A stretch of 40,957 nt of DNA from Gammaproteobacteria bacterium (GTDB taxonomy: Bacteria > Pseudomonadota > Gammaproteobacteria > UBA6429 > Thiohalophilaceae): assembly GCA_003233255.1 (NCBI GenBank), contig QILH01000296.1, positions 1 through 40,957 of the forward strand, written 5' to 3'. Shown one piece after another: positions 31,417 to 40,957 of the stretch. The first letter of the stretch is position 1. Every line of letters starts with the position of its first letter. A model generated the notes under the pieces. The model ran no database searches and was not told the origin of the DNA. It worked only from the letters and a program-made list of their open reading frames with translations. The position numbers were made by a program, and so were the translations under genes.

Positions 31417-31782
31417 ATGGCTACCCGAATTCTTGCAGTTGATGATTCAACCTCAATGCGGCAAATGGTTACATTCACGCTAAAAGGTGCAGGTTATGAG
31501 GTAGAAGAAGCGGCAGATGGTCAACAGGCATTAGATATCGCAAAGGGTGGAAAATTTGATTTAGTGCTCTCGGATGTGAATATGCCCGTAATGGACGGAA
31601 TTACGCTGGTCAAAGAATTGCGATCATTATCAAATTATAAATTTACACCAATATTGATGCTAACAACGGAAAGCACCGGAGATAAAAAAACCGAAGGGAA
31701 ATCCGCTGGTGCAACTGGCTGGATAGTAAAACCATTTAATCCAGAACAATTACTTACAACGATCAAGAAGGTGCTTGGTTAA
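31417..31782 (+). CDS. cheY: Single-domain response regulator CheY
   Basis: 121 aa. ILAVDDS, LVLSDVNMPVMDG, LMLTTE, IVKPF. AAGGAG RBS. Confidence 0.9.
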   Translation: MATRILAVDDSTSMRQMVTFTLKGAGYEVEEAADGQQALDIAKGGKFDLVLSDVNMPVMDGITLVKELRSLSNYKFTPILMLTTESTGDKKTEGKSAGATGWIVKPFNPEQLLTTIKKVLG

Positions 31783-31803
31783 GCACCGTTGCCGGGGACA
31801 GGT

Positions 31804-33834
31804 ATGTCGATTGATATTTCACAGTTTTTGCAGACTTTCTTCGAAGAGAGCTTTGAAGGACTCGATATTATGGAGTCTGAATTACTGAATCTTAATGTGG
31901 GTTCGGCCGACAAAGAAACGATCAATACGATCTTTCGTGCGGCTCATTCTATCAAAGGTGGAAGCGGTACTTTTGGCTTAAGCTCGGTTGCCGATTATAC
32001 TCATGTTTTAGAAACTTTGCTTGACGAGATGCGTGATGGCAAGCGTGATGTAACACAACAATCGGTTGACGTAATGTTGCAGTCGGTTGACGTCTTACGT
32101 GAGATGTTAAATGCGCTACAGGATAATCTAGATCTGGATCATGATCGTATAGCCTCATCGCATAAGCAATTAACGGACTTGCTTTCGTCGGATACGAGTT
32201 TACCTGCAGCCAGCAGTACGGATTCGAATGCCCCTAAAGATTCAGATACGCAAGAAGAAAATTCTTCCGGCGGTTGGATTATTAATTTTAGTCCCTACCC
32301 GGATATGATGAAAACGGGTAATGATCCGGTCAGAATTATTCGTGAGTTAGAAGAGCTGGGCAATTTAACGATAGAATTGAATGATGAGAAAGTCCCTTCA
32401 CTTGATGAGCTTGAGCCAGAAAGTTGTTATTTATCGTGGAAGTTAACTCTGCACGCAGATGTTCCCATTGATGCGGTGCAGGATGTTTTTTCCTGGGTAG
32501 ACGATGAATGCGAGCTGCAAATAAATGAAATAATCATTAGTGATGGTTACTCCGGCCCAGATCGTCGCGCTCCAGAATCAACCGGGAAAGCTCGGAAAGC
32601 AGCCAGCAAAGAACAAACTTCAATTCGGGTTGGTATCGATAAAGTCGATGATCTCATTAATATGGTCGGCGAGCTGGTAATAACTCAGTCCATGTTACAT
32701 CAGTTACATGATGTTGAAGAATTTAATCAGAACACTCTGGAACGGTTACAGGATGGGCTGGCACAACTGGAACAGCATACTCGCGAATTACAGGAAAACG
32801 TTATGCGCATTCGCATGATGCCGATCAGTTTTGCGTTTCAACGTTTTCCTCGGTTGGTGCGCGACTTGAGTAATCAGTTTGGTAAAAATATTGAACTAAA
32901 ACTTACTGGCGAACAAACTGAGCTAGATAAAACGGTGATGGAGAAGATTGGTGATCCACTTGTGCATCTGGTGCGTAATTCACTGGATCACGGTATAGAA
33001 ATGCCTGAGATACGTGCTGAAGCAGGAAAACCCGAAACAGGAACCATCGAACTTAATGCCTTCCATCGCGGTGGAAATATAATTATTGAAATCAAAGATG
33101 ATGGTGCCGGGTTAAATACCCAAAAAATATTACAGAAAGCAAAAGAGAATGGTTTGGTCAAAGAGGGAGACACGATTACAACTGAACAGGTCAATGATTT
33201 GATATTCCAGCCCGGATTTTCAACTGCGGATGTGGTCAGTGATGTGTCTGGGCGTGGGGTGGGTATGGATGTGGTGCGTCGTAATATTCGTGCCCTCAAT
33301 GGTAGCGTGGAAGTCGTATCGACTCCCGGAGTGGGATCGGTCTTTACCATCCGTTTACCCATTACCCTGGCGATACTCGATGGACAACTTGTACGAGTAG
33401 GAAAAGAAACCTATGTGATCCCGTTAATTTCGATTATTGAATCATTACAGGTGAAAAATGAATTTGTTAATGCTGTCACGGGTAGCGCTGAAGTGTATAA
33501 GCTGCGTGATGAATATATTCCGATTTTGCGTTTATATGAGATATTTGATGTCGAACCGGATACAAAAAACTTATCCGCTGGGATGTTAGTTATTGTCGAA
33601 TCGGAAGGGCAAAAGCTGGCCATATTCGTCGACGAATTACTTTCTCAACAGCAAGTGGTTATTAAAAGTCTGGAAACAAACTTTAGAAAAATTGATGGTT
33701 TGTCGGGCGCTACGATATTGGGCGATGGCACAGTAGCATTAATTGCAGACATTGTTGGCGTCTATGAGTTGTACCAGAAGAAGATAGTTCCATCCGAATT
33801 AAAAGTGATTCATGATGGCGGAGTCGCAGCATGA
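31804..33834 (+). CDS. cheA: Chemotaxis histidine kinase CheA
   Basis: ATG at 31804 (MSIDISQFLQTFFEES). Hpt motif RAAHSIKGGSGTFG, dimerisation and HATPase regions (DPLVHLVRNSLDHG; DDGAGL; GRGVGMDVV), C-terminal CheW-like domain. Confidence 0.95.
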   Translation: MSIDISQFLQTFFEESFEGLDIMESELLNLNVGSADKETINTIFRAAHSIKGGSGTFGLSSVADYTHVLETLLDEMRDGKRDVTQQSVDVMLQSVDVLREMLNALQDNLDLDHDRIASSHKQLTDLLSSDTSLPAASSTDSNAPKDSDTQEENSSGGWIINFSPYPDMMKTGNDPVRIIRELEELGNLTIELNDEKVPSLDELEPESCYLSWKLTLHADVPIDAVQDVFSWVDDECELQINEIIISDGYSGPDRRAPESTGKARKAASKEQTSIRVGIDKVDDLINMVGELVITQSMLHQLHDVEEFNQNTLERLQDGLAQLEQHTRELQENVMRIRMMPISFAFQRFPRLVRDLSNQFGKNIELKLTGEQTELDKTVMEKIGDPLVHLVRNSLDHGIEMPEIRAEAGKPETGTIELNAFHRGGNIIIEIKDDGAGLNTQKILQKAKENGLVKEGDTITTEQVNDLIFQPGFSTADVVSDVSGRGVGMDVVRRNIRALNGSVEVVSTPGVGSVFTIRLPITLAILDGQLVRVGKETYVIPLISIIESLQVKNEFVNAVTGSAEVYKLRDEYIPILRLYEIFDVEPDTKNLSAGMLVIVESEGQKLAIFVDELLSQQQVVIKSLETNFRKIDGLSGATILGDGTVALIADIVGVYELYQKKIVPSELKVIHDGGVAA

Positions 33835-33844
33835 GAGGAATATT

Positions 33845-34360
33845 ATGACCGATGCAGAAATGCAAATTGACGAGCTGAAACGTGAAGACGCTGAAACGCG
33901 TGAGTTTTTAACGTTTATGTTGGCTGGCGAAGAGTACGGTGTAGATATATTGCGAGTACAGGAAATCAAGGGTTGGGATTCTGTAACTAATATCCCAAAT
34001 ACACCGGATTACATTCGTGGTGTGATTAATTTACGCGGTACGATTGTTCCTATTATCGATATGCGGCTGCGGTTTAAACTGGAGCCCCTTGAATATGGTC
34101 CAACTACGGTTGTGATTGTACTAAAAGTAGAAAAAAATTCAGAGTTCGTGCGCACTATGGGTGTCGTGGTGGATGCGGTTTCTGATGTGCATGATGTACC
34201 AGCCAACCAGGTTAAAGCCTCACCCGACTTTGGTACGACGGTAGATACCGATTTCGTAAAAGGACTTGCGACGGTGGGTGAAAAAATGGTCATTGTGTTG
34301 GATATAGATTATATGCTGAATTCGCAGGAGCTTGCGTCGCTAGATGAGGTTATGGAGTAA
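33845..34360 (+). CDS. cheW: Coupling protein CheW
   Basis: ATG at 33845 after GAGAGG gives about 171 aa. EFLTFMLAGEEYGVDILRVQEIKGW..IRGVINLRGTIVPIIDMR. Confidence 0.9.
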   Translation: MTDAEMQIDELKREDAETREFLTFMLAGEEYGVDILRVQEIKGWDSVTNIPNTPDYIRGVINLRGTIVPIIDMRLRFKLEPLEYGPTTVVIVLKVEKNSEFVRTMGVVVDAVSDVHDVPANQVKASPDFGTTVDTDFVKGLATVGEKMVIVLDIDYMLNSQELASLDEVME

Positions 34361-34465
34361 GCGTCTATGTTAGACAAAAACACAATTTTAGGTCAGCTGT
34401 TTCGTATGGGCGATAAATTTATTTATTGAAGATTATAGTATGGAGTTTTAATAGAGGTGAAGGCA

Positions 34466-37006
34466 ATGAAAGTAATTCAAGGTTTAAAGGGTTGGCAGAA
34501 GCTGGTGATTAACGTTTGCTTGCTCTCGGTGGCGCCATTAATATTATTGTATGTCGTTTCGACAGGTGCTGCCGTTTCGATTACCTCGCTTGAGGTTATA
34601 GTTGCGCTGGTGTTTTTTGTATCGTCACTTGTTGTTAGTAGCATGATGATGGGCTTCTCCAGTAGTGCTAATGTGGCGAATGCGAATCGACTCCAGTCGG
34701 CGCTTGATGCGGTAACCACTAATGTAATGGTGGCGGATGCAGACAATAACATTGTCTATATGAACGAATCAGTTACTGAAATGTTTAATTTAGCGGGCAA
34801 TGATATTCGCAAAGATTTACCTGGCTTCAATGAAAATGATTTGCTCGGTGGCAATATGGATCAGTTTCATAAAGATCCATCACATCAACAACGTTTAGTG
34901 GCTGGGTTGAAAGATACGGTTAAAGCAGAAATAAAAGTGGGTGGGCGCACTTTTGGCCTGGTTGCTACGCCTATATTTGATGAATCAAACTCACGCATCG
35001 GTACCGCCATTGAATGGGCGGATCGCACGGATGAGGTTTCGGCTAATAATACGCGCGCTATCCTTGAGGCAGAAAATGCACGCGTCAAATCTTCACTGGA
35101 TGCGGTGACCACAAACGTAATGATTGCAGATGAGAATAATGACATTGTTTACATGAATAATGCATTGGTTGGAATGTTTAATGAAGCGGGAGATGATATA
35201 CGAAAAGATTTGCCCGAGTTTAATGAGAAAAATCTGATGCATGGGAATATGGATCAGTTTCATAAAGATCCATCGCACCAACGCAAAATGGTGGGCAGTC
35301 TGAAAGAAACAATTAGCGCGGAAATAGTCGTTGGGGGGCGTACATTTTCACTGGTTGCTACCCCAGTATTCAAAGACGATGGTATTCGTTTAGGTACAGC
35401 TGTGGAATGGAAGGATCGTACTGCCGAATTAAAAGTTATTGAGAAAGAGCGACATTTAATGAACGAAGCGATGCGTGTCCAGGCAGCTTTGATGGCGGTG
35501 ACATCAAATGTGATGGTGGCCGATGTCGATAATAATATTATGTTTATGAATGAAGCATTAAAAGAAATGTTTGATGCAGCACAAAATGATATTCGCAAAG
35601 AATTACCAAATTTTGATCGCACGAAATTACTGGGCGGAAATATGGATCAATTCCATAAGAACCCCGCTCACCAGCAGCGTCTTGTTAGTGAACTCAAAAG
35701 CACAATTAAGGCCGAAATTGTAGTGGGTGGTCGAACTTTTTCACTTGTGGCCACGCCGGTATCTAATGAAGAAGGTGAACGTCTGGGTACGGCAATAGAA
35801 TGGAAAGATCGAACGGCTGAATTGCAAATCGAAAAAGAAGTTGAAAGCGTTGTAGTTTCCGCTGCTAATGGCGATTTAAGTAAACGTTTGGCTGTTGAAG
35901 GTAAGACAGGCTTCTTTAGAAATGTTAGCGAAGGAATTAATCAATTGGCGGCTGTTTGCGATGATGTAATCCAGGATACTATTCGCGTATTCGGTGCTAT
36001 GGCCGATGGCAATCTAACCGAGAAAATCAACAAAGATTATCAGGGTTCATTTGAACAATTAAAAAACGATGCTAACGCAACGATTGATAAATTTGTTCAG
36101 GTAGTCAATGAGATACAAAACACAGCAGCTTCTGTTAAGACTGGGGCATCTGAAATCTCGATTGGTAACCAGTCACTAAGTCAACGAAACGAAGAGCAGG
36201 CCTCCAGCCTTGAAGAAACGGCCTCCAGCATGGAAGAGATGACCAGTACGGTACGCCAGAATGCGGATAATGCGAATCAGGCGAACCAACTGGCAACTGC
36301 AGCTCGTAGTCAGGCTGAAAAAGGCGGTGAAGTTGTCGCTACGGCTGTGAATGCGATGAGTGAGATTAACACCAGCAGTAAAAAAGTTGCCGATATTATC
36401 AGTGTGATCGATGAAATAGCGTTCCAGACTAATCTGCTTGCTTTAAATGCTGCCGTGGAAGCGGCACGAGCAGGCGAACAAGGGCGTGGATTTGCGGTGG
36501 TGGCATCAGAAGTTAGAAATTTGGCACAACGTTCGGCGGGTGCGGCGAAAGAGATCAAGGATCTGATCGAAGAGTCAGTGAGTAAGGTTGATGAGGGTAC
36601 CGAATTAGTTAATGCCTCAGGTGAAACACTGGAAGAGATTGTCAATGGCATTAAGAAAGTGAGCAATATTGTTGCTGAGATCGCCGCGGCCAGCGCAGAA
36701 CAGGCAAGCGGTATTGATCAGGTTAATAAGGCGGTGACACAACTTGATGATATGACGCAACAAAATGCGGCGTTAGTAGAAGAGGCGGCTGCGGCTAGCG
36801 AGGCGATGCAGGAACAGTCGGAAGGTCTATCGGACTTAATGACCTTCTTTTCTACGGGCACTGATAGTGATCCAGGTGTTGTCAACGCGGTACCGAAAGT
36901 TGATGTGGTGAAACCCACACACCGCCAGCCCGTAAAGGTTGCTGCTGCAGGAGGTCAGTCAAAACCTAAAGCTATTCCTGATGATGAAGAATGGGAAGAA
37001 TTTTAA
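34466..37006 (+). CDS. Aer2-like methyl-accepting chemotaxis protein. Domains: TM hairpin, three tandem PAS (haem-type) domains, di-HAMP-like region, MA signalling domain, C-terminal EWEEF pentapeptide
   Basis: Two N-terminal hydrophobic segments. Three 131-aa repeats, each containing NMDQFHK(D/N)P(S/A)HQ and (I/V)EW(A/K)DRT. GDLSKRL and GNLTEKI HAMP-like segments. MA hairpin [38 protein letters not shown]. The ATG at 34466 is preferred over the tracked GTG at 34457. Confidence 0.85.
34685..35836 (+). repeat. Three in-frame tandem repeats of 393 nt (the PAS modules of the MCP)
   Basis: The motif AATATGGATCA recurs at 34853, 35246 and 35639, an exact 393-nt period. Copies 1 and 2 share a 29-nt identical run (aatatggatcagtttcataaagatccatc). 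The copies are otherwise diverged. Confidence 0.85.
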
Positions 37007-37106: not shown

Positions 37107-37877
37107 ATGAGGCAAAGAATGGTGCGCCTGGTTTCTGTGGTCAATCAAAAAGGTGGAGTAGGTAAAACCACCACAGTTGCGAATCTTTCGCATATGCTGG
37201 CCTTAAGGGGCAATAAAGTAGCAGCAATTGATTTTGATCCGCAGGGCAGTTTAACCGTGAGCCTGGGTAAAAATTCGCGCAGTTTATCCGGTATGGATGA
37301 AGTGTTGTTAGAAGGTGCAGGAATTGATGAAGTCATGCACGAAGTCCGAGATAATCTTCAACTGGTTGCATGTGGGCCTCAGCTAGCGGCCTGTGAACAA
37401 AAACTGGAAAACACCTCAGCGGTGGCTAAACGTTTACGTAAAACTTTAAAAAACCTGGTTGACTATGATTATGTCTTACTGGATTGTCCACCGTCTTCTG
37501 GTTTCTTAGTCGTTAGTGCCTTATATGCAACTGAAGAAATATTAATACCGGTAGCGGGTGATTTCCTTGCATTACATGGAATGTCACACTTAATGGGTAC
37601 CCTGGCTCAATTCGAATCATCCTTGAAACTTAAACATAAACGCTGGATCGTGGTTACGCGTTTCCATCCCCGTCGGCGTCTTTCTCAGGGTGTAATTGAT
37701 AATCTGGTTGAACATTTCCCTGCTACGGTTTTAAAGACGCCGATTCGAGAAACTTCAGCATTAGCTGAAGGCCCGAGCTTTGGTTTGACCATAAGTGAAT
37801 ATCGAAATAAGAGTAACGGTTCGGCTGATTATGAAAAATTGGCTGTGGATTTTTGTAAAGGTAGAACAATACAATGA
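37107..37877 (+). CDS. Orphan ParA/MinD-family (deviant Walker A) ATPase, analogous by context to ParC/PpfA
   Basis: VVNQKGGVGKTTT (KGGxxGKT deviant Walker A), DFDPQGSL, VLLDCPPS. 256 aa, or 252 aa from the ATG at 37119, which has a GAGG RBS. No parB-like gene is adjacent. The stop overlaps the next ATG (ATGA). Confidence 0.85.
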   Translation: MRQRMVRLVSVVNQKGGVGKTTTVANLSHMLALRGNKVAAIDFDPQGSLTVSLGKNSRSLSGMDEVLLEGAGIDEVMHEVRDNLQLVACGPQLAACEQKLENTSAVAKRLRKTLKNLVDYDYVLLDCPPSSGFLVVSALYATEEILIPVAGDFLALHGMSHLMGTLAQFESSLKLKHKRWIVVTRFHPRRRLSQGVIDNLVEHFPATVLKTPIRETSALAEGPSFGLTISEYRNKSNGSADYEKLAVDFCKGRTIQ

Positions 37878-38791
37878 CAAAACAAAAAAAGAATATTATC
37901 GGTCATGACCCATTAGCCTGGATTTCTATTGATGACGAAGATGAAGTTTCTGAAGGAAAAAAATCATTAGGAGCTAATTCGAAGCAACAAACTGCGTCAA
38001 ACTCTGAAGCGCATCCATTTGGCATTGATGTTGGTGCCTTTTTACTTGGGTATGGGCTTATTCAGGATAATTTAACTGATATTGTATCTGATTTTTATAA
38101 GACATTATTTTTAACCCATTCAGAAGTTAAGCTCCTGTTTGAGAATTCAGATACGGAAGAACAACAACAAAAGCTGGCTAGAGCAATTTCATTGTTGGCT
38201 GATAACATCAATGATGTTGATAAATTGCTTACAGTTTTATCTGGTTTAGGAGAACGCCATCAACAATACGGTGCAGTTACCGAGCACTTTAATGCGGTAA
38301 ACGTTACCTTATTGTCGACCATAAAGACACATATCGGCCGAAAATGGACGAAGAAAATCTCTGCGAGCTGGGAAGTTGTTTTAGACAGAGCGGCAGAAGC
38401 TATGTTATCCGCCTATACAGATGAGTCAGAATTATCTCCAAGCGATGCAGAACCTGAGTCAACTGAGCCAGTAGAAGTAATTAATGACCAAAATAATGAT
38501 ACGGAACAGGCCAGTAATGAGGAGGGAGTGCTGTACCTGGCCGCATCACAGGATATTTCAACCGTCGAGGAATTGCTGGATAGAATAAAATCTGGCATTG
38601 ATGTTGGTCTGGTTAATATTAATATATCAAATGTTACGCGCATTGATGCGTCTTGTTTGCAGATATTATATTTACTTTTTCGCGATGCGGATATATATGG
38701 ATACGAAACAAAAATTAAAGGCTCATCGGAAGCGTTTGATCGATCTGTGCATTTGTTGGGTATGAGTAATGTATTAAAAGTGGCCGTATAA
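37874..38791 (+). CDS. Fusion protein: Lys-rich N-terminal peptide, VHb-like globin domain, acidic linker, STAS domain
   Basis: Residues about 60-180 align by eye with Vitreoscilla-type haemoglobin: DFYKTLFLTHSEVKLLF against TFYKNLFAKHPEVRPLF; EQQQKLA against EQPKALA; LGERH (F8 His, codon 38258-38260); W..V.....A. The C-terminal 90 aa are SpoIIAA/STAS-like (VNINISNVTRIDASCLQILY...IKGSSEAFDRSVHLLGM). Confidence 0.7.
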   Translation: MTKQKKNIIGHDPLAWISIDDEDEVSEGKKSLGANSKQQTASNSEAHPFGIDVGAFLLGYGLIQDNLTDIVSDFYKTLFLTHSEVKLLFENSDTEEQQQKLARAISLLADNINDVDKLLTVLSGLGERHQQYGAVTEHFNAVNVTLLSTIKTHIGRKWTKKISASWEVVLDRAAEAMLSAYTDESELSPSDAEPESTEPVEVINDQNNDTEQASNEEGVLYLAASQDISTVEELLDRIKSGIDVGLVNINISNVTRIDASCLQILYLLFRDADIYGYETKIKGSSEAFDRSVHLLGMSNVLKVAV

Positions 38792-39658
38792 ATGAAAGCA
38801 TTATCGACAAAAACAGAAGAAGCATTTAAAAAAAATCGTGAATTTGAGTTTAATGAGAGAGATTTTAAATTCATTGTTAATTTGGTAGGTGAGCGTACGG
38901 GCATTGTATTATCTGAGACCAAACGCGAAATGGTTTACAGCCGATTAACACGACGTATACGCGAACTTGGAATAAAGGACTTTACTACATATTGCAACAT
39001 GTTGCGTGACGGGGATCCTAATGAATTAATTAACTTTACAAATGCCTTGACCACAAATTTGACGTCTTTTTTTCGCGAACCTCATCACTTTGAATATCTG
39101 GCAAATACGGTTCTACCTGCTCTGGCGTCGACTAAAAAACAGCGACAGTTACGAATCTGGTCGGCAGGATGCTCTTCCGGAGAAGAGCCTTATACCATCG
39201 CCATGACGGTGCGCGAAGTTTTTCCAGAAAATTCTGGTTGGGATATAAAGATCATGGCCACGGATCTTGACTCAAATATGGTCGACAGGGCGCAGGCAGG
39301 AATCTACGTAGATGAAAGGGTAACCGGAATAGATAAACGGCGCCTAAAACGTTGGTTTGTTAAAGGCAAGGGGCAGAATTCAGGAAAAGTTAAAATAAAA
39401 CCAGAACTCCAGCAACTCATCACGTTTAAACAGTTAAATCTACTCCATGATTGGCCCATGCGAGAAGCCTTTGACGTTATTTTTTGTCGTAATGTTGTTA
39501 TCTATTTTAATAAAGATACACAGAGGGTTTTATTTTCCCGTTACTCAGATGTTATTGCTGACCATGGCCATTTGTTTATTGGCCATTCTGAGTCACTGAA
39601 CAAAGTAAGTGATGACTTTAATTTAATCGGCAAGACAATATATCAGAAGATCAGCTGA
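38792..39658 (+). CDS. cheR: Chemotaxis methyltransferase CheR (operon copy, CheR2-like)
   Basis: 288 aa. TTNLTSFFREPHHF, RIWSAGCSSGEEPYTI, VIFCRNVVIYF. The ATG directly follows the upstream stop (TAAATG). Confidence 0.9.
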   Translation: MKALSTKTEEAFKKNREFEFNERDFKFIVNLVGERTGIVLSETKREMVYSRLTRRIRELGIKDFTTYCNMLRDGDPNELINFTNALTTNLTSFFREPHHFEYLANTVLPALASTKKQRQLRIWSAGCSSGEEPYTIAMTVREVFPENSGWDIKIMATDLDSNMVDRAQAGIYVDERVTGIDKRRLKRWFVKGKGQNSGKVKIKPELQQLITFKQLNLLHDWPMREAFDVIFCRNVVIYFNKDTQRVLFSRYSDVIADHGHLFIGHSESLNKVSDDFNLIGKTIYQKIS

Positions 39659-40320
39659 TGGTTGCAGTAAACAGAGAAATAGATGAACGAAATCATCCTA
39701 AACCGATCTGTATAAGTGGTTTTGAGAATATCAACCGTTACTGGGACAGGCGCAATAATATTCACGCTGCAAAAATACTCCCAGGGGAATTTTATGTTAC
39801 AAAATTTAATGAGGCGGTTGTTACCGTATTGGGATCCTGTGTTTCTGCCTGCATTCGCGATCGAGTAAAACATATTGGCGGTATGAATCATTTTATGTTA
39901 CCGGCAGGTAACGAAGATAATCTTGAAGAGTTAAACAAAGCAGGAAATGCAGCACGCTATGGGAATTTCGCGATGGAACAACTAATTAATACTATATTAA
40001 GCAACGGAGGAAACCGTGAGCACCTTGAAGTCAAGTTATTTGGTGGCGGTAAGGTTCTAGGAGGTATGGATCAAATTCTTATCGGGGATAAAAATATTGC
40101 GTTCATACGCGGTTATGTGATTCTGGAAGGTTTGAGTGTGGTGGCACAGGATCTTGGTGACGTCTATCCAAGGAAGGTCATGTATTTTCCTAACACAGGG
40201 AAGGTCTGGCTTAAAAAACTTCACAAAGTGGATAATAAAACGATTGCCAGTCGTGAAAAACGTTACAAAGTCGAAATTCAGCAACAACCTGTTGAAAGTG
40301 ATATTGAGTTATTTGATTAA
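39658..40320 (+). CDS. cheD: Chemoreceptor glutamine deamidase CheD
   Basis: 220 aa. [14 protein letters not shown] (catalytic Cys region), [16 protein letters not shown]. The start overlaps the cheR stop (TGATG). Confidence 0.9.
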
Positions 40321-40325
40321 TCACC

Positions 40326-40957
40326 ATGGCTAAAATAAAAGTTGTAATTGTAGATGACTCAGCTCTGGTTAGACAGATATTAACCGAGATACTAAATTCG
40401 GATCCCGCTATTGAAGTGGTTGGTCATGCGCAGGATCCTATTATTGCACGAGACAAAATAAAATTACTCAATCCAGATGTGATTACCCTCGATGTTGAAA
40501 TGCCAAAGATGGATGGGGTGACTTTCCTGCGTAATCTAATGCGGCTGCGTCCAATGCCGGTTGTGATGATTTCATCGCTTACTGAGAAAGGGGCCGATAT
40601 AACCTTGCAGGCTATGGAAATCGGTGCGGTTGATTTTATTGCCAAACCCAGGATCGATGTTCAGGAAGGACTTGATGAGTATAAAGATGAGATCATTGCG
40701 AAAGTAAAAATGGCCGCTAAGGCAAAAGTCCGAGCCTACAATGATACTCCAATGAGAAAGATGAATATCGATCCTAAACTTAATGCTGATGCGGTGTTAA
40801 GTAGACGATCAAATAAACATTTTAAAACAACCGATAAGCTGATCGCGATAGGGGCATCTACCGGAGGCACGGAGGCGATTCGTGATGTACTTGTGTCGAT
40901 GCCACCGGATGCACCTGGCATCGTAATCAGCCAGCATATCCCGGAGGCCTTCAGTGC
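40326..40957 (+). CDS. cheB: Chemotaxis methylesterase/deamidase CheB, N-terminal about 210 aa (runs off the window end)
   Basis: Not in the ORF track because there is no stop in the window. [17 protein letters not shown]...[12 protein letters not shown]...FIAKP is the REC domain. It continues with ..[32 protein letters not shown], the esterase domain with its active-site Ser motif. Confidence 0.9.

What the first reader, a model, noticed from the sequence alone, without database searches (positions are those of the whole stretch)
37107..38791. Two-gene module (orphan ParA-type ATPase + globin-STAS fusion) inserted into an otherwise canonical Che2/F7-type chemosensory operon
**Context.** From 31417 onward the order is cheY-cheA-cheW-(Aer2-like MCP)-X-Y-cheR-cheD-cheB. 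As I recall them, the P. aeruginosa che2 cluster and V. cholerae cluster III run cheY-cheA-cheW-aer2-cheR-cheD-cheB, with the receptor directly followed by cheR.

**What the sequence shows.** Two extra genes sit exactly at that junction and are translationally coupled to the operon:
- ATGA overlap at 37874-37877.
- TAAATG at 38789-38794.
- TGATG at 39656-39660.

**Why it is unusual.** ParA-like ATPases inside che operons are known as array-positioning factors: ParC with the CheW-domain partner ParP in Vibrio, and PpfA with the receptor TlpT in Rhodobacter sphaeroides. The gene in the partner position here has neither a CheW nor an MCP domain. It is a haem-type globin fused to a STAS partner-switching domain.

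**Hypothesis.** This could be a gas- or redox-gated positioning, assembly or partner-switching module for an O2-sensing chemosensory array. I do not know of a described equivalent.
Basis: partly seen in the sequence, partly recalled or inferred. Interest (0 to 1): 0.85.

Follow-up and report, generated by a model that had tools for sequence, protein, structure and literature searches.

The report
Chemotaxis-array ParA with haem-globin adaptor
Two extra genes in a bacterial chemotaxis operon encode a ParA-type positioning ATPase and its partner, which joins a ParA-docking tail, a haem-binding globin and a STAS docking domain; this pairing is common in environmental bacteria, and I found no description of it.

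Summary
Between an Aer2-like receptor gene and cheR lie a Soj-like ParA ATPase (probable start 37119) and a 305-residue protein. That protein has an invariant N-terminal peptide, a haem-competent flavohaemoglobin-type globin and a non-phosphorylatable STAS domain.

The word "inserted" is wrong:
- ParA relatives at 50% identity or more lie in che clusters of this type in all 10 sampled cases.
- ParA divergence tracks that of CheA and CheR.
- In 87 of 88 loci the gene directly after ParA begins with the peptide [KR]KK-x-[MI]-G-x-D-P-L-A-W-[LIM].

The peptide sits on three interchangeable carriers: STAS alone, globin-STAS (as here), or the soluble globin-PAS receptor itself, as with PpfA/TlpT. 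A free STAS gene upstream of cheY is present in 22 of 22 loci where the receptor carries the peptide, and in 0 of 39 where STAS is fused behind it.

My best reading is a third kind of ParA/partner system for chemosensory arrays. The peptide engages ParA, and the STAS domain, which descends from the 5' "anti-sigma antagonist" of stage-1 F7 clusters, docks on the array. Gas-gating by the globin is plausible but untested. I found no description of this in the literature. I rate it a new variant of a known kind, of moderately high interest.

The parts
31417..31782 (+). cheY (response regulator), first gene of the che cluster; follows fliK
   Evidence: Pfam Response_reg 3.1e-29. There is no free-standing STAS gene in the 185-nt gap after fliK.
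31789..33834 (+). cheA histidine kinase
   Evidence: Pfam Hpt, H-kinase_dim, HATPase_c and CheW domains.
33812..34360 (+). cheW (the only one in the cluster)
   Evidence: Pfam CheW 2.4e-36.
34457..37006 (+). Aer2-like receptor: N-terminal hydrophobic hairpin, three Aer2-type PAS domains, HAMP, MCP signalling domain, C-terminal EWEEF pentapeptide; it has no globin
   Evidence: Pfam MCPsignal 5.5e-56, PAS x3 and HAMP_2. NCBIfam Aer2_vibrio scores 707 bits, below its cut-off. Hydrophobic segments span residues 13-69, and the protein ends in EWEEF.
37119..37877 (+). ParA/Soj-like deviant Walker A ATPase (the ORF opens at 37107; the likely start is ATG 37119)
   Evidence: AAA_31 1.9e-40. Soj/ParA structures match at E about 1e-37, with the KGGVGKT, DxDPQG and DCPPS motifs aligned. 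GAGG lies 6 nt before 37119, and homologues are 251 aa.
37874..37924 (+). N-terminal peptide MTKQKKNIIGHDPLAWI of the adaptor; proposed ParA-binding and ParA-activating motif
   Evidence: G10, D12, P13 and W16 are invariant across 26 carriers of three architectures and in 70 unique peptides. The peptide is always on the gene after ParA, in 87 of 88 loci. It is absent from 78 generic ParA loci. It is disordered in the AF2 model.
37925..38029 (+). Disordered acidic and polar linker
   Evidence: pLDDT is below 50 for residues 1-43. Length and composition vary among homologues, and many relatives have a Lys-rich linker here.
38030..38410 (+). Haem-type globin domain of the M/flavohaemoglobin family, close to Hell's Gate globin I
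   Evidence: Pfam Globin 1.1e-12. PDB 3s1i matches at 5e-16. Foldseek to 3s1i gives TMt 0.91 and rmsd 1.1 A. Tyr75 (B10), Phe89 (CD1), Gln97 (E7) and His129 (F8) are invariant in the clade and kept in 47 of 49 adaptor globins.
38411..38518 (+). Disordered acidic linker between the globin and STAS domains
   Evidence: pLDDT is below 50 for residues 184-215. The stretch is variable in the alignment.
38519..38791 (+). STAS domain with motif R-I-D-A-S-C-L-Q; Ala occupies the canonical phospho-Ser position
   Evidence: STAS_2 4.1e-5. The AF2 domain model matches RsbV and SpoIIAA at TM 0.70-0.74. An HMM of adaptor STAS domains hits the free-standing 5' STAS of sister clusters at 56-83 bits, but CrsA/HsbA-like STAS proteins at only 15 bits.
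38792..39658 (+). cheR
   Evidence: Pfam CheR 2e-66. The start abuts the adaptor's stop codon (TAAATG).
39658..40320 (+). cheD
   Evidence: Pfam CheD 6.5e-27. TGATG overlap.
40326..40957 (+). cheB (5' part; runs off the window)
   Evidence: Sequence read. Syntenic loci carry a 356-358-aa CheB followed by fliA.

Best explanation
The two genes form a ParA/partner cargo-handling module that belongs to this Aer2-type (F7-like) chemosensory system.

**The ATPase.** It is a Soj-like ATP-sandwich dimer.

**The adaptor.** The next gene encodes its cognate adaptor, which has three working parts:
1. A basic and aliphatic N-terminal peptide (KKNIIGHDPLAWI) on a disordered leash. It binds at the ParA dimer interface and stimulates ATP hydrolysis, as the N-terminal peptides of ParB, McdB, ParP and TlpT do.
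2. A haem b globin of the flavohaemoglobin/HGbI type that can bind O2, NO or CO.
3. A STAS domain that cannot be phosphorylated in the canonical way. [quoted passage not shown] CheA is the most likely contact, by analogy with the STAS protein CheS.

**The outcome.** ParA-ATP, bound to the nucleoid or to a polar anchor, tethers, spaces or partitions the array, so that each daughter cell inherits one.

**Status of each step.**
- Shown: the domain identities; conservation of the peptide and its strict adjacency to ParA; the three interchangeable carriers; the mutual exclusivity of free and fused STAS; co-inheritance with the che genes.
- Inferred: physical binding of peptide to ParA; the STAS target; the positioning matrix; any effect of the haem ligand.
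For: **The ParA clade is chemotaxis-specific.**
- All 10 sampled homologues at 50-93% identity lie after cheW or the MCP in cheY-cheA-cheW...cheR-cheD-cheB clusters.

**The peptide marks the partner.**
- A metagenome scan for the peptide alone returned 80 loci, all in such clusters.
- The peptide-bearing gene directly follows ParA in 87 of 88 loci.
- The peptide is absent from 78 generic ParA loci.
- It sits at the extreme N-terminus, has a net charge of about +2.3 before the invariant G-x-D-P-L-A-W, and is followed by a disordered linker.
- This fits the general partner-protein rule (PMC10241942, section 17) and the description of the ParB motif (PMC12462528, introduction).

**Fusion ("Rosetta-stone") evidence.**
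- The peptide is fused directly to soluble globin-PAS-HAMP receptors in 33 loci. This is the PpfA/TlpT logic, so the cargo is the receptor array.
- A free STAS gene lies 5' of cheY in 22 of 22 such loci, and in 0 of 39 loci where STAS is fused behind the peptide.
- The fused and free STAS proteins are close homologues, at 56-83 bits.

**Co-inheritance.** ParA divergence tracks CheA (rho 0.80) and CheR (rho 0.72).

**Active-site and haem residues.**
- The ParA catalytic motifs are intact, and the Arg at the Soj TMxDxR position is conserved.
- The haem-pocket residues are conserved.

**Precedent for the STAS target.** CheS, a STAS-only protein encoded upstream of cheY-cheA in alphaproteobacterial che operons, binds CheA (PMC12654446, section 13).
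Against: - There is no direct evidence for any physical contact. A multimer prediction could not be run.
- In the window's lineage the receptor is membrane-anchored. Nucleoid-based partitioning of the PpfA type therefore fits less naturally here than in the sister lineages with soluble receptors.
- The second Soj DNA-binding arginine (in the NVR motif) aligns with Ala, so DNA binding is uncertain.
- Homology of this STAS domain to CheS was not tested.
- The window's linker lacks the Lys-rich tract that many relatives have.
- The globin might play only a structural role, for example dimerisation.
Confidence: 0.6

Rival explanations
1. The module tunes signalling rather than positioning. The STAS domain acts like CheS, changing how CheA handles CheY or phosphate flow. 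ParA serves as an ATP-dependent switch, or sequesters the modulator. The globin feeds O2 or NO status into kinase output in trans, replacing the globin that this lineage's receptor has lost.
For: - The adaptor STAS is orthologous to the free 5' STAS that sits directly before cheY-cheA. That is the position of cheS, whose product binds CheA and alters CheY1 handling (PMC12654446, section 13).
- Only in the window's lineage has the receptor lost its globin while the adaptor keeps one.
Against: - This does not explain why a ParA ATPase and a ParA-partner-type peptide are strictly co-conserved with the module.
- It does not explain why the peptide can sit on the receptor itself.
- Known ParA-type proteins inside che clusters are positioning factors (PMC11407121, section 8).
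- The two roles are not mutually exclusive.
Confidence: 0.15
2. The globin-STAS protein is an RsbR-like sensor of a partner-switching or stressosome pathway that controls a sigma factor. An example would be FliA, which follows cheB in relatives. The ParA would be incidental.
For: - Globin-STAS is the RsbR architecture, and a haem-binding RsbR forms an O2-sensing stressosome in Vibrio (PMC4976288, PMC9237108).
- fliA lies just downstream in syntenic loci.
- Related clusters carry a CrsA/CrsR-like STAS plus an RR-PP2C-kinase gene.
Against: - No rsbS, rsbT, rsbW or PP2C gene neighbours the adaptor in the window or its closest relatives.
- The SpoIIAA Ser58 position is Gly, Ala or Thr throughout the family.
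- The adaptor STAS is only distantly related to the CrsA/HsbA-like STAS proteins, at 15 bits against 56-83 bits.
- The globin belongs to Pfam PF00042 and is HGbI-like, not the sensor or protoglobin type.
Confidence: 0.07
3. The ATPase is an FlhG/FleN-type regulator of flagellar number or placement that happens to sit in a che cluster next to the flagellar genes.
For: In this lineage the cluster lies between fliK and fliA, inside a flagellar gene region.
Against: - The best structural relatives are Soj/ParA proteins (1e-37). MinD scores only 1e-15, and no FlhG structure appears at E below 1e-10.
- Sister loci in which the receptor carries the peptide are never linked to fliK (0 of 19), yet they keep ParA and the peptide.
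- The partner peptide can be part of the receptor.
Confidence: 0.05

Closest known systems
ParC/ParP of Vibrio and other bacteria with F6 chemotaxis clusters
   Same: A ParA-like ATPase is encoded inside a che operon. The next gene encodes an adaptor that binds the ATPase through one region and enters the array through a C-terminal domain that contacts CheA and the receptors (PMC7534058, section 10; PMC5706961).
   Different: - The partner here has no CheW-like AIF domain. It uses a STAS domain, and it adds a haem globin.
- The gene position differs: after cheW or the MCP and before cheR, not between cheB and cheW.
- The system type differs: Aer2/CheD/F7-like rather than F6.
- Sequence orthology to ParC could not be tested.
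PpfA/TlpT of Rhodobacter sphaeroides
   Same: A ParA-like ATPase partitions a cytoplasmic receptor cluster on the nucleoid, and the ATPase-interacting region is the receptor's N-terminus (PMC11407121, section 8; the TlpT detail is from my own knowledge of Roberts et al. 2012). Sister loci of this family do exactly this: the peptide is fused to soluble globin-PAS receptors that follow ParA.
   Different: In the window the peptide is on a separate globin-STAS protein, and the receptor is membrane-anchored. Orthology to PpfA was not tested.
Stage-1 F7 chemosensory cluster (Ortega et al. 2020) and Aer2
   Same: - The gene order matches: STAS-cheY-cheA-cheW-(cheW)-aer2-cheR-cheD-cheB (PMC7184735, section 10).
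- The receptor has Aer2-type PAS-haem domains.
- The receptor carries a C-terminal xWEEF tether, with EWEEF in 61 of about 70 receptors.
   Different: - ParA takes the place of the second cheW.
- The 5' STAS is fused behind a ParA-binding peptide.
- The cluster is embedded in the flagellar region and followed by fliA, rather than by mcpA-STAS-PP2C.
- That paper and its supplements do not mention ParA.
CheS (STAS-only protein of Sinorhizobium and Agrobacterium che operons)
   Same: It is a small STAS protein encoded directly upstream of cheY-cheA, and it binds CheA (PMC12654446, section 13). The free 5' STAS of the sister loci occupies the same position.
   Different: CheS has no ParA link, no peptide and no globin. 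Homology between CheS and this STAS domain was not tested.
RsbR-type globin-STAS sensors, including the O2-sensing Vibrio stressosome
   Same: The domain order is the same, an N-terminal globin followed by a C-terminal STAS, and in Vibrio the globin binds haem (PMC4976288, PMC9237108).
   Different: - The globin family differs: M/flavohaemoglobin type rather than sensor type.
- There are no RsbS or RsbT partners.
- The canonical phospho-site is absent.
- This protein has an extra N-terminal peptide and sits next to ParA in a che operon.
Hell's Gate globin I and HGbRL (Methylacidiphilum)
   Same: These are the closest solved globins (3s1i at 5e-16 with TMt 0.91; 3wfw at 3e-14). HGbRL sets a precedent for this globin subgroup being fused to a signalling domain (PMC4476040).
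   Different: HGbRL is fused to a Roadblock/LC7 domain, not to STAS or an MCP, and it has no ParA or chemotaxis context.

Membership tests
ParA/MinD deviant Walker A ATPases | Deviant Walker A motif xKGGxxGK[ST] with the signature lysine, plus the catalytic Asp and Walker B motifs | tested here: met
   NQKGGVGKTT, DFDPQG and DCPPS align with the same motifs of Soj (1wcv) and M. xanthus ParA (8ray). They are invariant in 24 homologues.
ParA/MinD deviant Walker A ATPases | A cognate partner with a charged, disordered N-terminal ATPase-interacting peptide | tested here: inconclusive
   A conserved basic and aliphatic N-terminal peptide lies on the adjacent gene in 87 of 88 loci. Binding and stimulation were not tested.
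ParC/ParP system | The partner (ParP) carries a CheW-like AIF domain | tested here: not met
   The Pfam scan of the partner finds only Globin and STAS, with no CheW match.
ParC/ParP system | parC-parP lie between cheB and cheW of an F6 cluster | tested here: not met
   The order here is cheW-MCP-parA-adaptor-cheR-cheD-cheB.
ParC/ParP system | Sequence orthology of the ATPase to ParC; HubP-dependent polar localisation | not tested
Localisation needs an experiment.
PpfA/TlpT system | The partner is a cytoplasmic chemoreceptor whose N-terminus engages the ATPase | tested here: not met
   The window's partner has no MCP domain, and the receptor has an N-terminal TM hairpin. The feature is met in 33 sister loci.
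PpfA/TlpT system | Non-specific nucleoid DNA binding by the ATPase | not testable with these tools
   The Arg at the Soj TMxDxR position is conserved, but the second Soj DNA-binding Arg aligns with Ala. The result is indecisive.
M/flavohaemoglobin-type bacterial globins | A 3-on-3 globin fold with proximal His F8, Tyr B10, Gln E7 and Phe CD1 | tested here: met
   Pfam Globin 1.1e-12. NCBIfam flavohaemoprotein N-terminus 3e-16. Foldseek to HGbI gives TMt 0.91. Y75, F89, Q97 and H129 are invariant. Haem binding itself was not measured.
Globin-coupled sensors of the S (sensor/protoglobin) family, including RsbR | A sensor-type globin domain (Protoglobin or RsbRD_N profile) | tested here: not met
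   The window protein has no Protoglobin or RsbR_N match. All the best PDB hits are M-type globins.
Globin-coupled sensors of the S (sensor/protoglobin) family, including RsbR | Stressosome partners RsbS and RsbT nearby; phosphorylatable STAS residues | tested here: not met
   No such neighbours occur in the window or in L001, L003 and L004. Ala occupies the SpoIIAA Ser58 position.
STAS domain | The STAS fold or profile | tested here: met
   STAS_2 scores 24.1 bits, below the gathering score, in the window and 42-50 bits in homologues. The AF2 domain model matches RsbV, SpoIIAA and MlaB at TM 0.67-0.74.
Stage-1 F7 chemosensory cluster (Ortega 2020) | The order STAS-cheY-cheA-cheW-cheW-aer2-cheR-cheD-cheB-mcpA-STAS-PP2C | tested here: inconclusive
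   The core order, the Aer2-like receptor, cheD and the EWEEF tether are present. Missing here are the second cheW, a free 5' STAS and the mcpA-STAS-PP2C tail. Relatives have fliA after cheB. Sister loci L006, L008, L172 and L173 do carry an mcpA-like receptor gene after cheB, and in the first three it is followed by STAS and PP2C genes. HMM-based class assignment (MiST) was not available.
CheS | A STAS-only protein that binds CheA and modulates CheY handling | not tested
   Only positional analogy of the free 5' STAS supports this (PMC12654446). No CheS sequence or interaction test was available.

The most novel reading that the evidence does not exclude
The adaptor is a ligand-gated "luggage tag". 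The O2, NO or redox state of its haem globin changes the globin's oligomeric or conformational state. That change juxtaposes or separates the two N-terminal peptides, much as ParB clamp closure does, or it exposes the STAS docking surface. ParA-driven tethering, number, inheritance or kinase coupling of the oxygen-sensing array would then be switched by the very gas the array measures. This would be the first small-molecule-regulated ParA cargo adaptor.
Probability: 0.2. Interest if true: 0.85.

Novelty: new variant of a known kind. Interest (0 to 1): 0.62.

Why it matters
- ParA-type ATPases organise chromosomes, carboxysomes, flagella and chemoreceptor arrays. Only two partner types are described for arrays: ParP, which is CheW-like, and the receptor TlpT. 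This family adds a third adaptor type built on a STAS domain.
- The family shows the same short peptide moving between three carriers. That is unusually clean natural evidence for the "N-terminal luggage-tag" principle.
- It gives a testable function to the unexplained 5' "anti-sigma antagonist" of ancestral F7 clusters, whose cellular role and membrane or polar attachment are open questions.
- It shows flavohaemoglobin-type globins recruited as sensor modules on receptors and adaptors, outside the classical sensor-globin family.
- If the haem state gates the adaptor, this would be a new regulatory logic for intracellular positioning.
- Cultured carriers exist for experiments: Beggiatoa alba and Sulfuriflexus mobilis. 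A Methylomarinum MAG carries the pair too, so cultivable methanotroph relatives may as well.

Tried and rejected
- **Genome-collection scan with a ParA alignment.** The conserved Walker motifs pulled in about 600 generic Soj/ParA loci. The 78 generic loci still served as a negative control for the peptide.
- **Cluster-member look-up for taxonomy.** Its closest relatives are hydrothermal-vent Gammaproteobacteria MAGs.
- **Literature searches for ParA+STAS+globin, ParA in F7/Aer2 clusters and M-type globin sensors.** None described this module.
- **No ParC, PpfA, TlpT, ParP or CheS reference sequences could be obtained,** so orthology to them is untested. No ParC-type locus was among the fetched loci.
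- **A multimer prediction of a ParA dimer plus peptide, or of STAS plus CheA, is not possible with the single-chain tool.** The ATGA frame shift also prevents a read-through construct.
- **Stressosome/RsbR reading, rejected.** There are no RsbS or RsbT neighbours, the globin is the wrong type and no phospho-site is present.
- **FlhG reading, rejected.** The ATPase is Soj-like, and loci with the peptide on the receptor are not linked to flagellar genes.
- **Recent insertion or horizontal-cassette reading, rejected.** GC content is unremarkable, and ParA co-diverges with CheA and CheR.
- **Promoter and terminator scan.** It gave nothing above chance.
Full report
**1. What is in the window**

Downstream of a flagellar gene block (fliJ, fliK), nine genes run on the + strand. 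They are cheY, cheA, cheW, an 849-residue receptor, a ParA-type ATPase, a 305-residue protein, cheR, cheD and the start of cheB.

The 100-nt gap between the receptor gene and parA contains no promoter-like or terminator-like site, and such sites are not enriched anywhere in the cluster. GC content is unremarkable across the region.

The receptor has these features:
- two N-terminal hydrophobic segments (residues 13-69);
- three Aer2-type PAS domains, a HAMP domain and an MCP signalling domain;
- a C-terminal EWEEF pentapeptide, the F7/Aer2-type tether for CheR and CheB.

**2. The ATPase**

The ORF matches AAA_31 (1.9e-40) and CbiA. Its closest solved relatives are chromosomal Soj/ParA proteins: T. 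thermophilus Soj 1wcv, M. xanthus ParA 8ray and H. pylori Soj, at E about 1e-37. MinD scores only about 1e-15, and no FlhG structure appears.

The deviant Walker A motif (KGGVGKT, with the signature Lys), DxDPQG and DCPPS are intact, and they are invariant in 24 homologues. The arginine at the Soj TMxDxR position is conserved, but the second Soj DNA-binding arginine aligns with Ala. Nucleoid binding is therefore possible but unproven.

Homologues are 251 residues long, and a GAGG motif lies 6 nt before the ATG at 37119. The true start is probably 37119 rather than 37107.

**3. The second protein**

It has five segments:
1. An invariant N-terminal peptide, MTKQKKNIIGHDPLAWI.
2. A disordered linker.
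3. A globin domain.
4. A disordered acidic linker.
5. A STAS domain.

*The globin.* It is of the myoglobin/flavohaemoglobin type, not the sensor-globin type:
- Pfam Globin scores 1.1e-12, with no Protoglobin match.
- The NCBIfam flavohaemoprotein N-terminus scores 3e-16.
- The best PDB hits are Hell's Gate globin I (5e-16), HGbRL and flavohaemoglobins.
- The AF2 model superposes on HGbI with TM 0.91 and rmsd 1.1 A.
- Tyr-B10 (Y75), Phe-CD1 (F89), Gln-E7 (Q97) and the proximal His-F8 (H129) are invariant in the clade. They are kept in 47 of 49 adaptor globins and in all 83 related receptor globins. The domain is very probably haem-loaded.

*The STAS domain.* It falls below Pfam's cut-off in the window (24.1 bits against 29.2). 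It is nevertheless clearly homologous to adaptors that pass the cut-off (42-48 bits). A separate AF2 model of the domain matches RsbV, SpoIIAA and MlaB at TM 0.67-0.74. The position of the SpoIIAA phospho-serine is Ala here and Gly, Ala or Thr across the family, within the motif R-I-D-[GAT]-[SA]-x-L-Q. Canonical partner-switch phosphorylation is therefore unlikely.

**4. Comparative genomics changes the picture**

A word-indexed search found only eight other full-length relatives of the globin-STAS protein. All had identical synteny: fliK-cheY-cheA-cheW-MCP-ParA-globinSTAS-cheR-cheD-cheB-fliA.

The ParA, in contrast, has more than 100 cluster representatives at 50-93% identity. All ten that I sampled lie in the same kind of che cluster. 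The sampled genomes include Beggiatoa alba and Sulfuriflexus mobilis. The genome-collection scan added a Methylomarinum MAG and a Thioalkalispiraceae MAG.

In every case the gene after ParA begins with the same peptide. I scanned the metagenome collection for the peptide alone, using the pattern [MIK][IM]GxDPL[AS]W[LIM]. The scan returned 80 confirmed loci, and every one lies in such a cluster.

Over 92 loci the results are:
- The peptide-bearing gene directly follows ParA in 87 of the 88 loci where upstream DNA is available.
- None of the 78 generic ParA loci fetched by accident carries the peptide.
- The 70 unique peptides share an invariant G-x-D-P-L-A-W core. A Lys-rich stretch precedes it (mean net charge +2.3), and acidic residues follow it.

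**5. Three carriers of one peptide**

The counts below are for non-redundant loci:

| Type | Architecture of the peptide-bearing protein | Loci | What follows |
|---|---|---|---|
| a | peptide-linker-STAS | 10 | usually a soluble globin-PAS-HAMP receptor |
| b | peptide-linker-globin-STAS | 46 | usually a soluble globin-PAS-HAMP receptor |
| c | peptide-linker-globin-PAS-HAMP-MCP (the peptide is on the receptor) | 33 | cheR |

- Type c is the PpfA/TlpT logic.
- All 67 globin-bearing receptors lack predicted transmembrane segments.
- A free-standing STAS gene of about 100 residues lies directly upstream of cheY in 22 of 22 type-c loci, and in 0 of 39 type-a or type-b loci.
- An HMM of the adaptor STAS domains hits those free STAS proteins at 56-83 bits. 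It hits the CrsA/HsbA-like STAS proteins further downstream at only 15 bits.

So each cluster has exactly one copy of this STAS. It is either free, with the peptide on the receptor, or fused behind the peptide. Type-c loci match the published "stage-1 F7" order: anti-sigma antagonist-cheY-cheA-cheW-cheW-aer2-cheR-cheD-cheB-mcpA-antagonist-phosphatase (PMC7184735, section 10). The difference is that ParA stands where the second cheW would be.

The window's lineage (window, L001, L003, L004) is a derived form of type b. The receptor has lost the globin, gained a membrane anchor or a periplasmic domain, and sits upstream of ParA. The order MCP-ParA-STAS adaptor-cheR also occurs in L171, L172 and L009.

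**6. Not an insertion**

Identity of ParA to the window's ParA correlates across loci with identity of the core che proteins:

| Compared protein | Spearman rho | n | p |
|---|---|---|---|
| CheA | 0.80 | 66 | 1.1e-15 |
| CheR | 0.72 | 63 | 2.4e-11 |
| CheD | 0.59 | 59 | 1.1e-06 |

The absolute identities are also similar. For L001 they are ParA 93, CheA 82 and CheR 85. For L005 they are 68, 64 and 63. ParA has therefore been inherited together with the cluster.

**7. Mechanism**

[quoted passage not shown] In ParB this motif combines aliphatic and basic residues, binds at the dimer interface, and works best when two copies are juxtaposed (PMC12462528). For chemoreceptor arrays, only ParC/ParP and PpfA are listed (PMC11407121, section 8).

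*Inference.* The peptide here is the ParA-binding motif, and the cargo is the receptor/CheA/CheW array. The second point rests on the peptide being able to sit on the receptor itself. The STAS domain is the array-docking module. CheS, a STAS-only protein encoded upstream of cheY-cheA in rhizobial operons, binds CheA (PMC12654446, section 13). That makes CheA the leading candidate target, but I could not test homology to CheS.

*The globin.* It could sense gas, provide dimerisation that pairs two peptides, or both. In the window's lineage it is the only globin left in the operon, so it may supply in trans the input that the receptor lost.

*The positioning matrix.* Whether ParA uses the nucleoid or a polar anchor is unknown. 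Many relatives carry histone-H1-like Lys-rich linkers (a Pfam HC2 match). These recall the nucleoid-binding tail of FrzCD (PMC5716589). The window's linker, however, is acidic.

**8. Rivals**

- *A CheS-like signalling modulator.* This is compatible with much of the data, but it does not explain the ParA and peptide conservation.
- *An RsbR-like stressosome sensor.* It is contradicted by the globin family, the missing phospho-site, the absence of RsbS, RsbT or PP2C neighbours, and the distance from CrsA-like STAS proteins.
- *An FlhG-like flagellar regulator.* It is contradicted by the Soj-like sequence and by type-c loci that are never linked to fliK.

**9. Known or new**

The reference analysis of F7 systems does not mention ParA in its text or supplements. 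The model F7 clusters of S. oneidensis, V. cholerae and P. aeruginosa lack it (PMC9855816; PMC7534058; the P. aeruginosa case is from my own knowledge).

Reviews of ParA/MinD cargo systems list only ParC and PpfA for arrays. The globin papers I consulted describe sensor-type globin fusions and the HGbRL Roadblock fusion, but not M-type globins fused to STAS or MCP domains. Databases call these proteins "chromosome partitioning protein" or "hypothetical".

I therefore class this as a new variant of a known kind, a ParA/partner system for chemosensory arrays. Within that, the window shows a rarer sub-variant.

**10. Limits**

- No physical interaction was tested.
- Many metagenome loci come from one sample series (Ga03162xx), so the counts overstate independent lineages. 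The sequences are nevertheless diverse, with adaptor globins averaging about 50% identity.
- Orthology to ParC, PpfA and CheS, and formal F-class assignment, remain untested.

Noticed in passing
window 37107-37121: The ParA ORF opens at ATG 37107. Homologues are 251 aa, and GAGG lies 6 nt before ATG 37119, so the real start is probably 37119.
   Followed up: yes
window 34457-34665 (receptor residues 13-69); L003 6023-9145; L004 361-3555: The receptors of this lineage are membrane-anchored. The window and L001 have a hairpin. L003 and L004 have two well-separated hydrophobic segments (residues about 7-36 and 314-348 in L003, about 25-56 and 224-256 in L004). All 67 globin-bearing receptors of sister loci have no predicted TM segment. 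This suggests a switch from cytoplasmic to membrane arrays while ParA was kept.
   Followed up: partly
L005 8753-9871; L089 8753-9340; L006 8756-9265: Many adaptors and receptor N-termini carry long AKKK-repeat, histone-H1-like linkers directly after the peptide (Pfam HC2 1.6e-7 in L005). These could bind the nucleoid directly, as the FrzCD tail does. The window's linker is acidic instead.
   Followed up: partly
L090 5503-6102 (Beggiatoa alba): This STAS-only adaptor keeps a vestigial globin start (ISPLGLDVES...) without the rest of the globin. That hints that some peptide-STAS adaptors arose by globin loss.
   Followed up: no
proteins P0173 and P0209: Some globin-STAS adaptors have lost Tyr-B10 and the proximal His, so they probably no longer bind haem. 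This parallels the non-haem globin of Bacillus RsbR.
   Followed up: no
proteins P0130 (2461 aa), P0131, P0132, P0136: These are giant proteins with 9-14 tandem copies of this globin type. Their function is unknown.
   Followed up: no
L171 10712-11284; L172 8372-8950: An ORF of about 190 residues with no Pfam match sits between the STAS adaptor and cheR in two distant clusters. I did not test whether the two ORFs are related. It may be a further accessory component.
   Followed up: no
L006 14440-16756; L008 14612-16759; L172 11640-14756: Sister clusters end with an mcpA-like receptor, a canonical phosphorylatable STAS (DSSALG motif) and an RR-PP2C-kinase gene. This is the CrsA/CrsR (HsbA/HsbR) partner switch of stage-1 F7 clusters. 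The flagellar-linked lineages, including the window's relatives, have fliA there instead.
   Followed up: partly
L010 4825-8640; L156: Some receptors carry two tandem globins after the peptide, followed by three or four PAS domains (1271 aa in L010).
   Followed up: no
L023 2538-3457 (Phycisphaerae MAG): A CheW gene is followed by a ParA that is 48% identical to the window's, at the end of a contig in a planctomycete. The family may extend beyond the Gammaproteobacteria.
   Followed up: no
L009 33-4623 (Methylomarinum MAG): A methanotroph MAG carries MCP-cheW-ParA-peptideSTAS-cheR. The F7 cluster MEALZ_2869-2879 of M. alcaliphilum, already imaged by cryo-ET in Ortega 2020, has the right gene count to contain the same pair. 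This is unverified.
   Followed up: no
L139 around 6001: This is the only locus where the peptide-bearing gene is not called directly after ParA. A 153-residue globin-like ORF lies between them. It may be a frameshift or a split gene.
   Followed up: no
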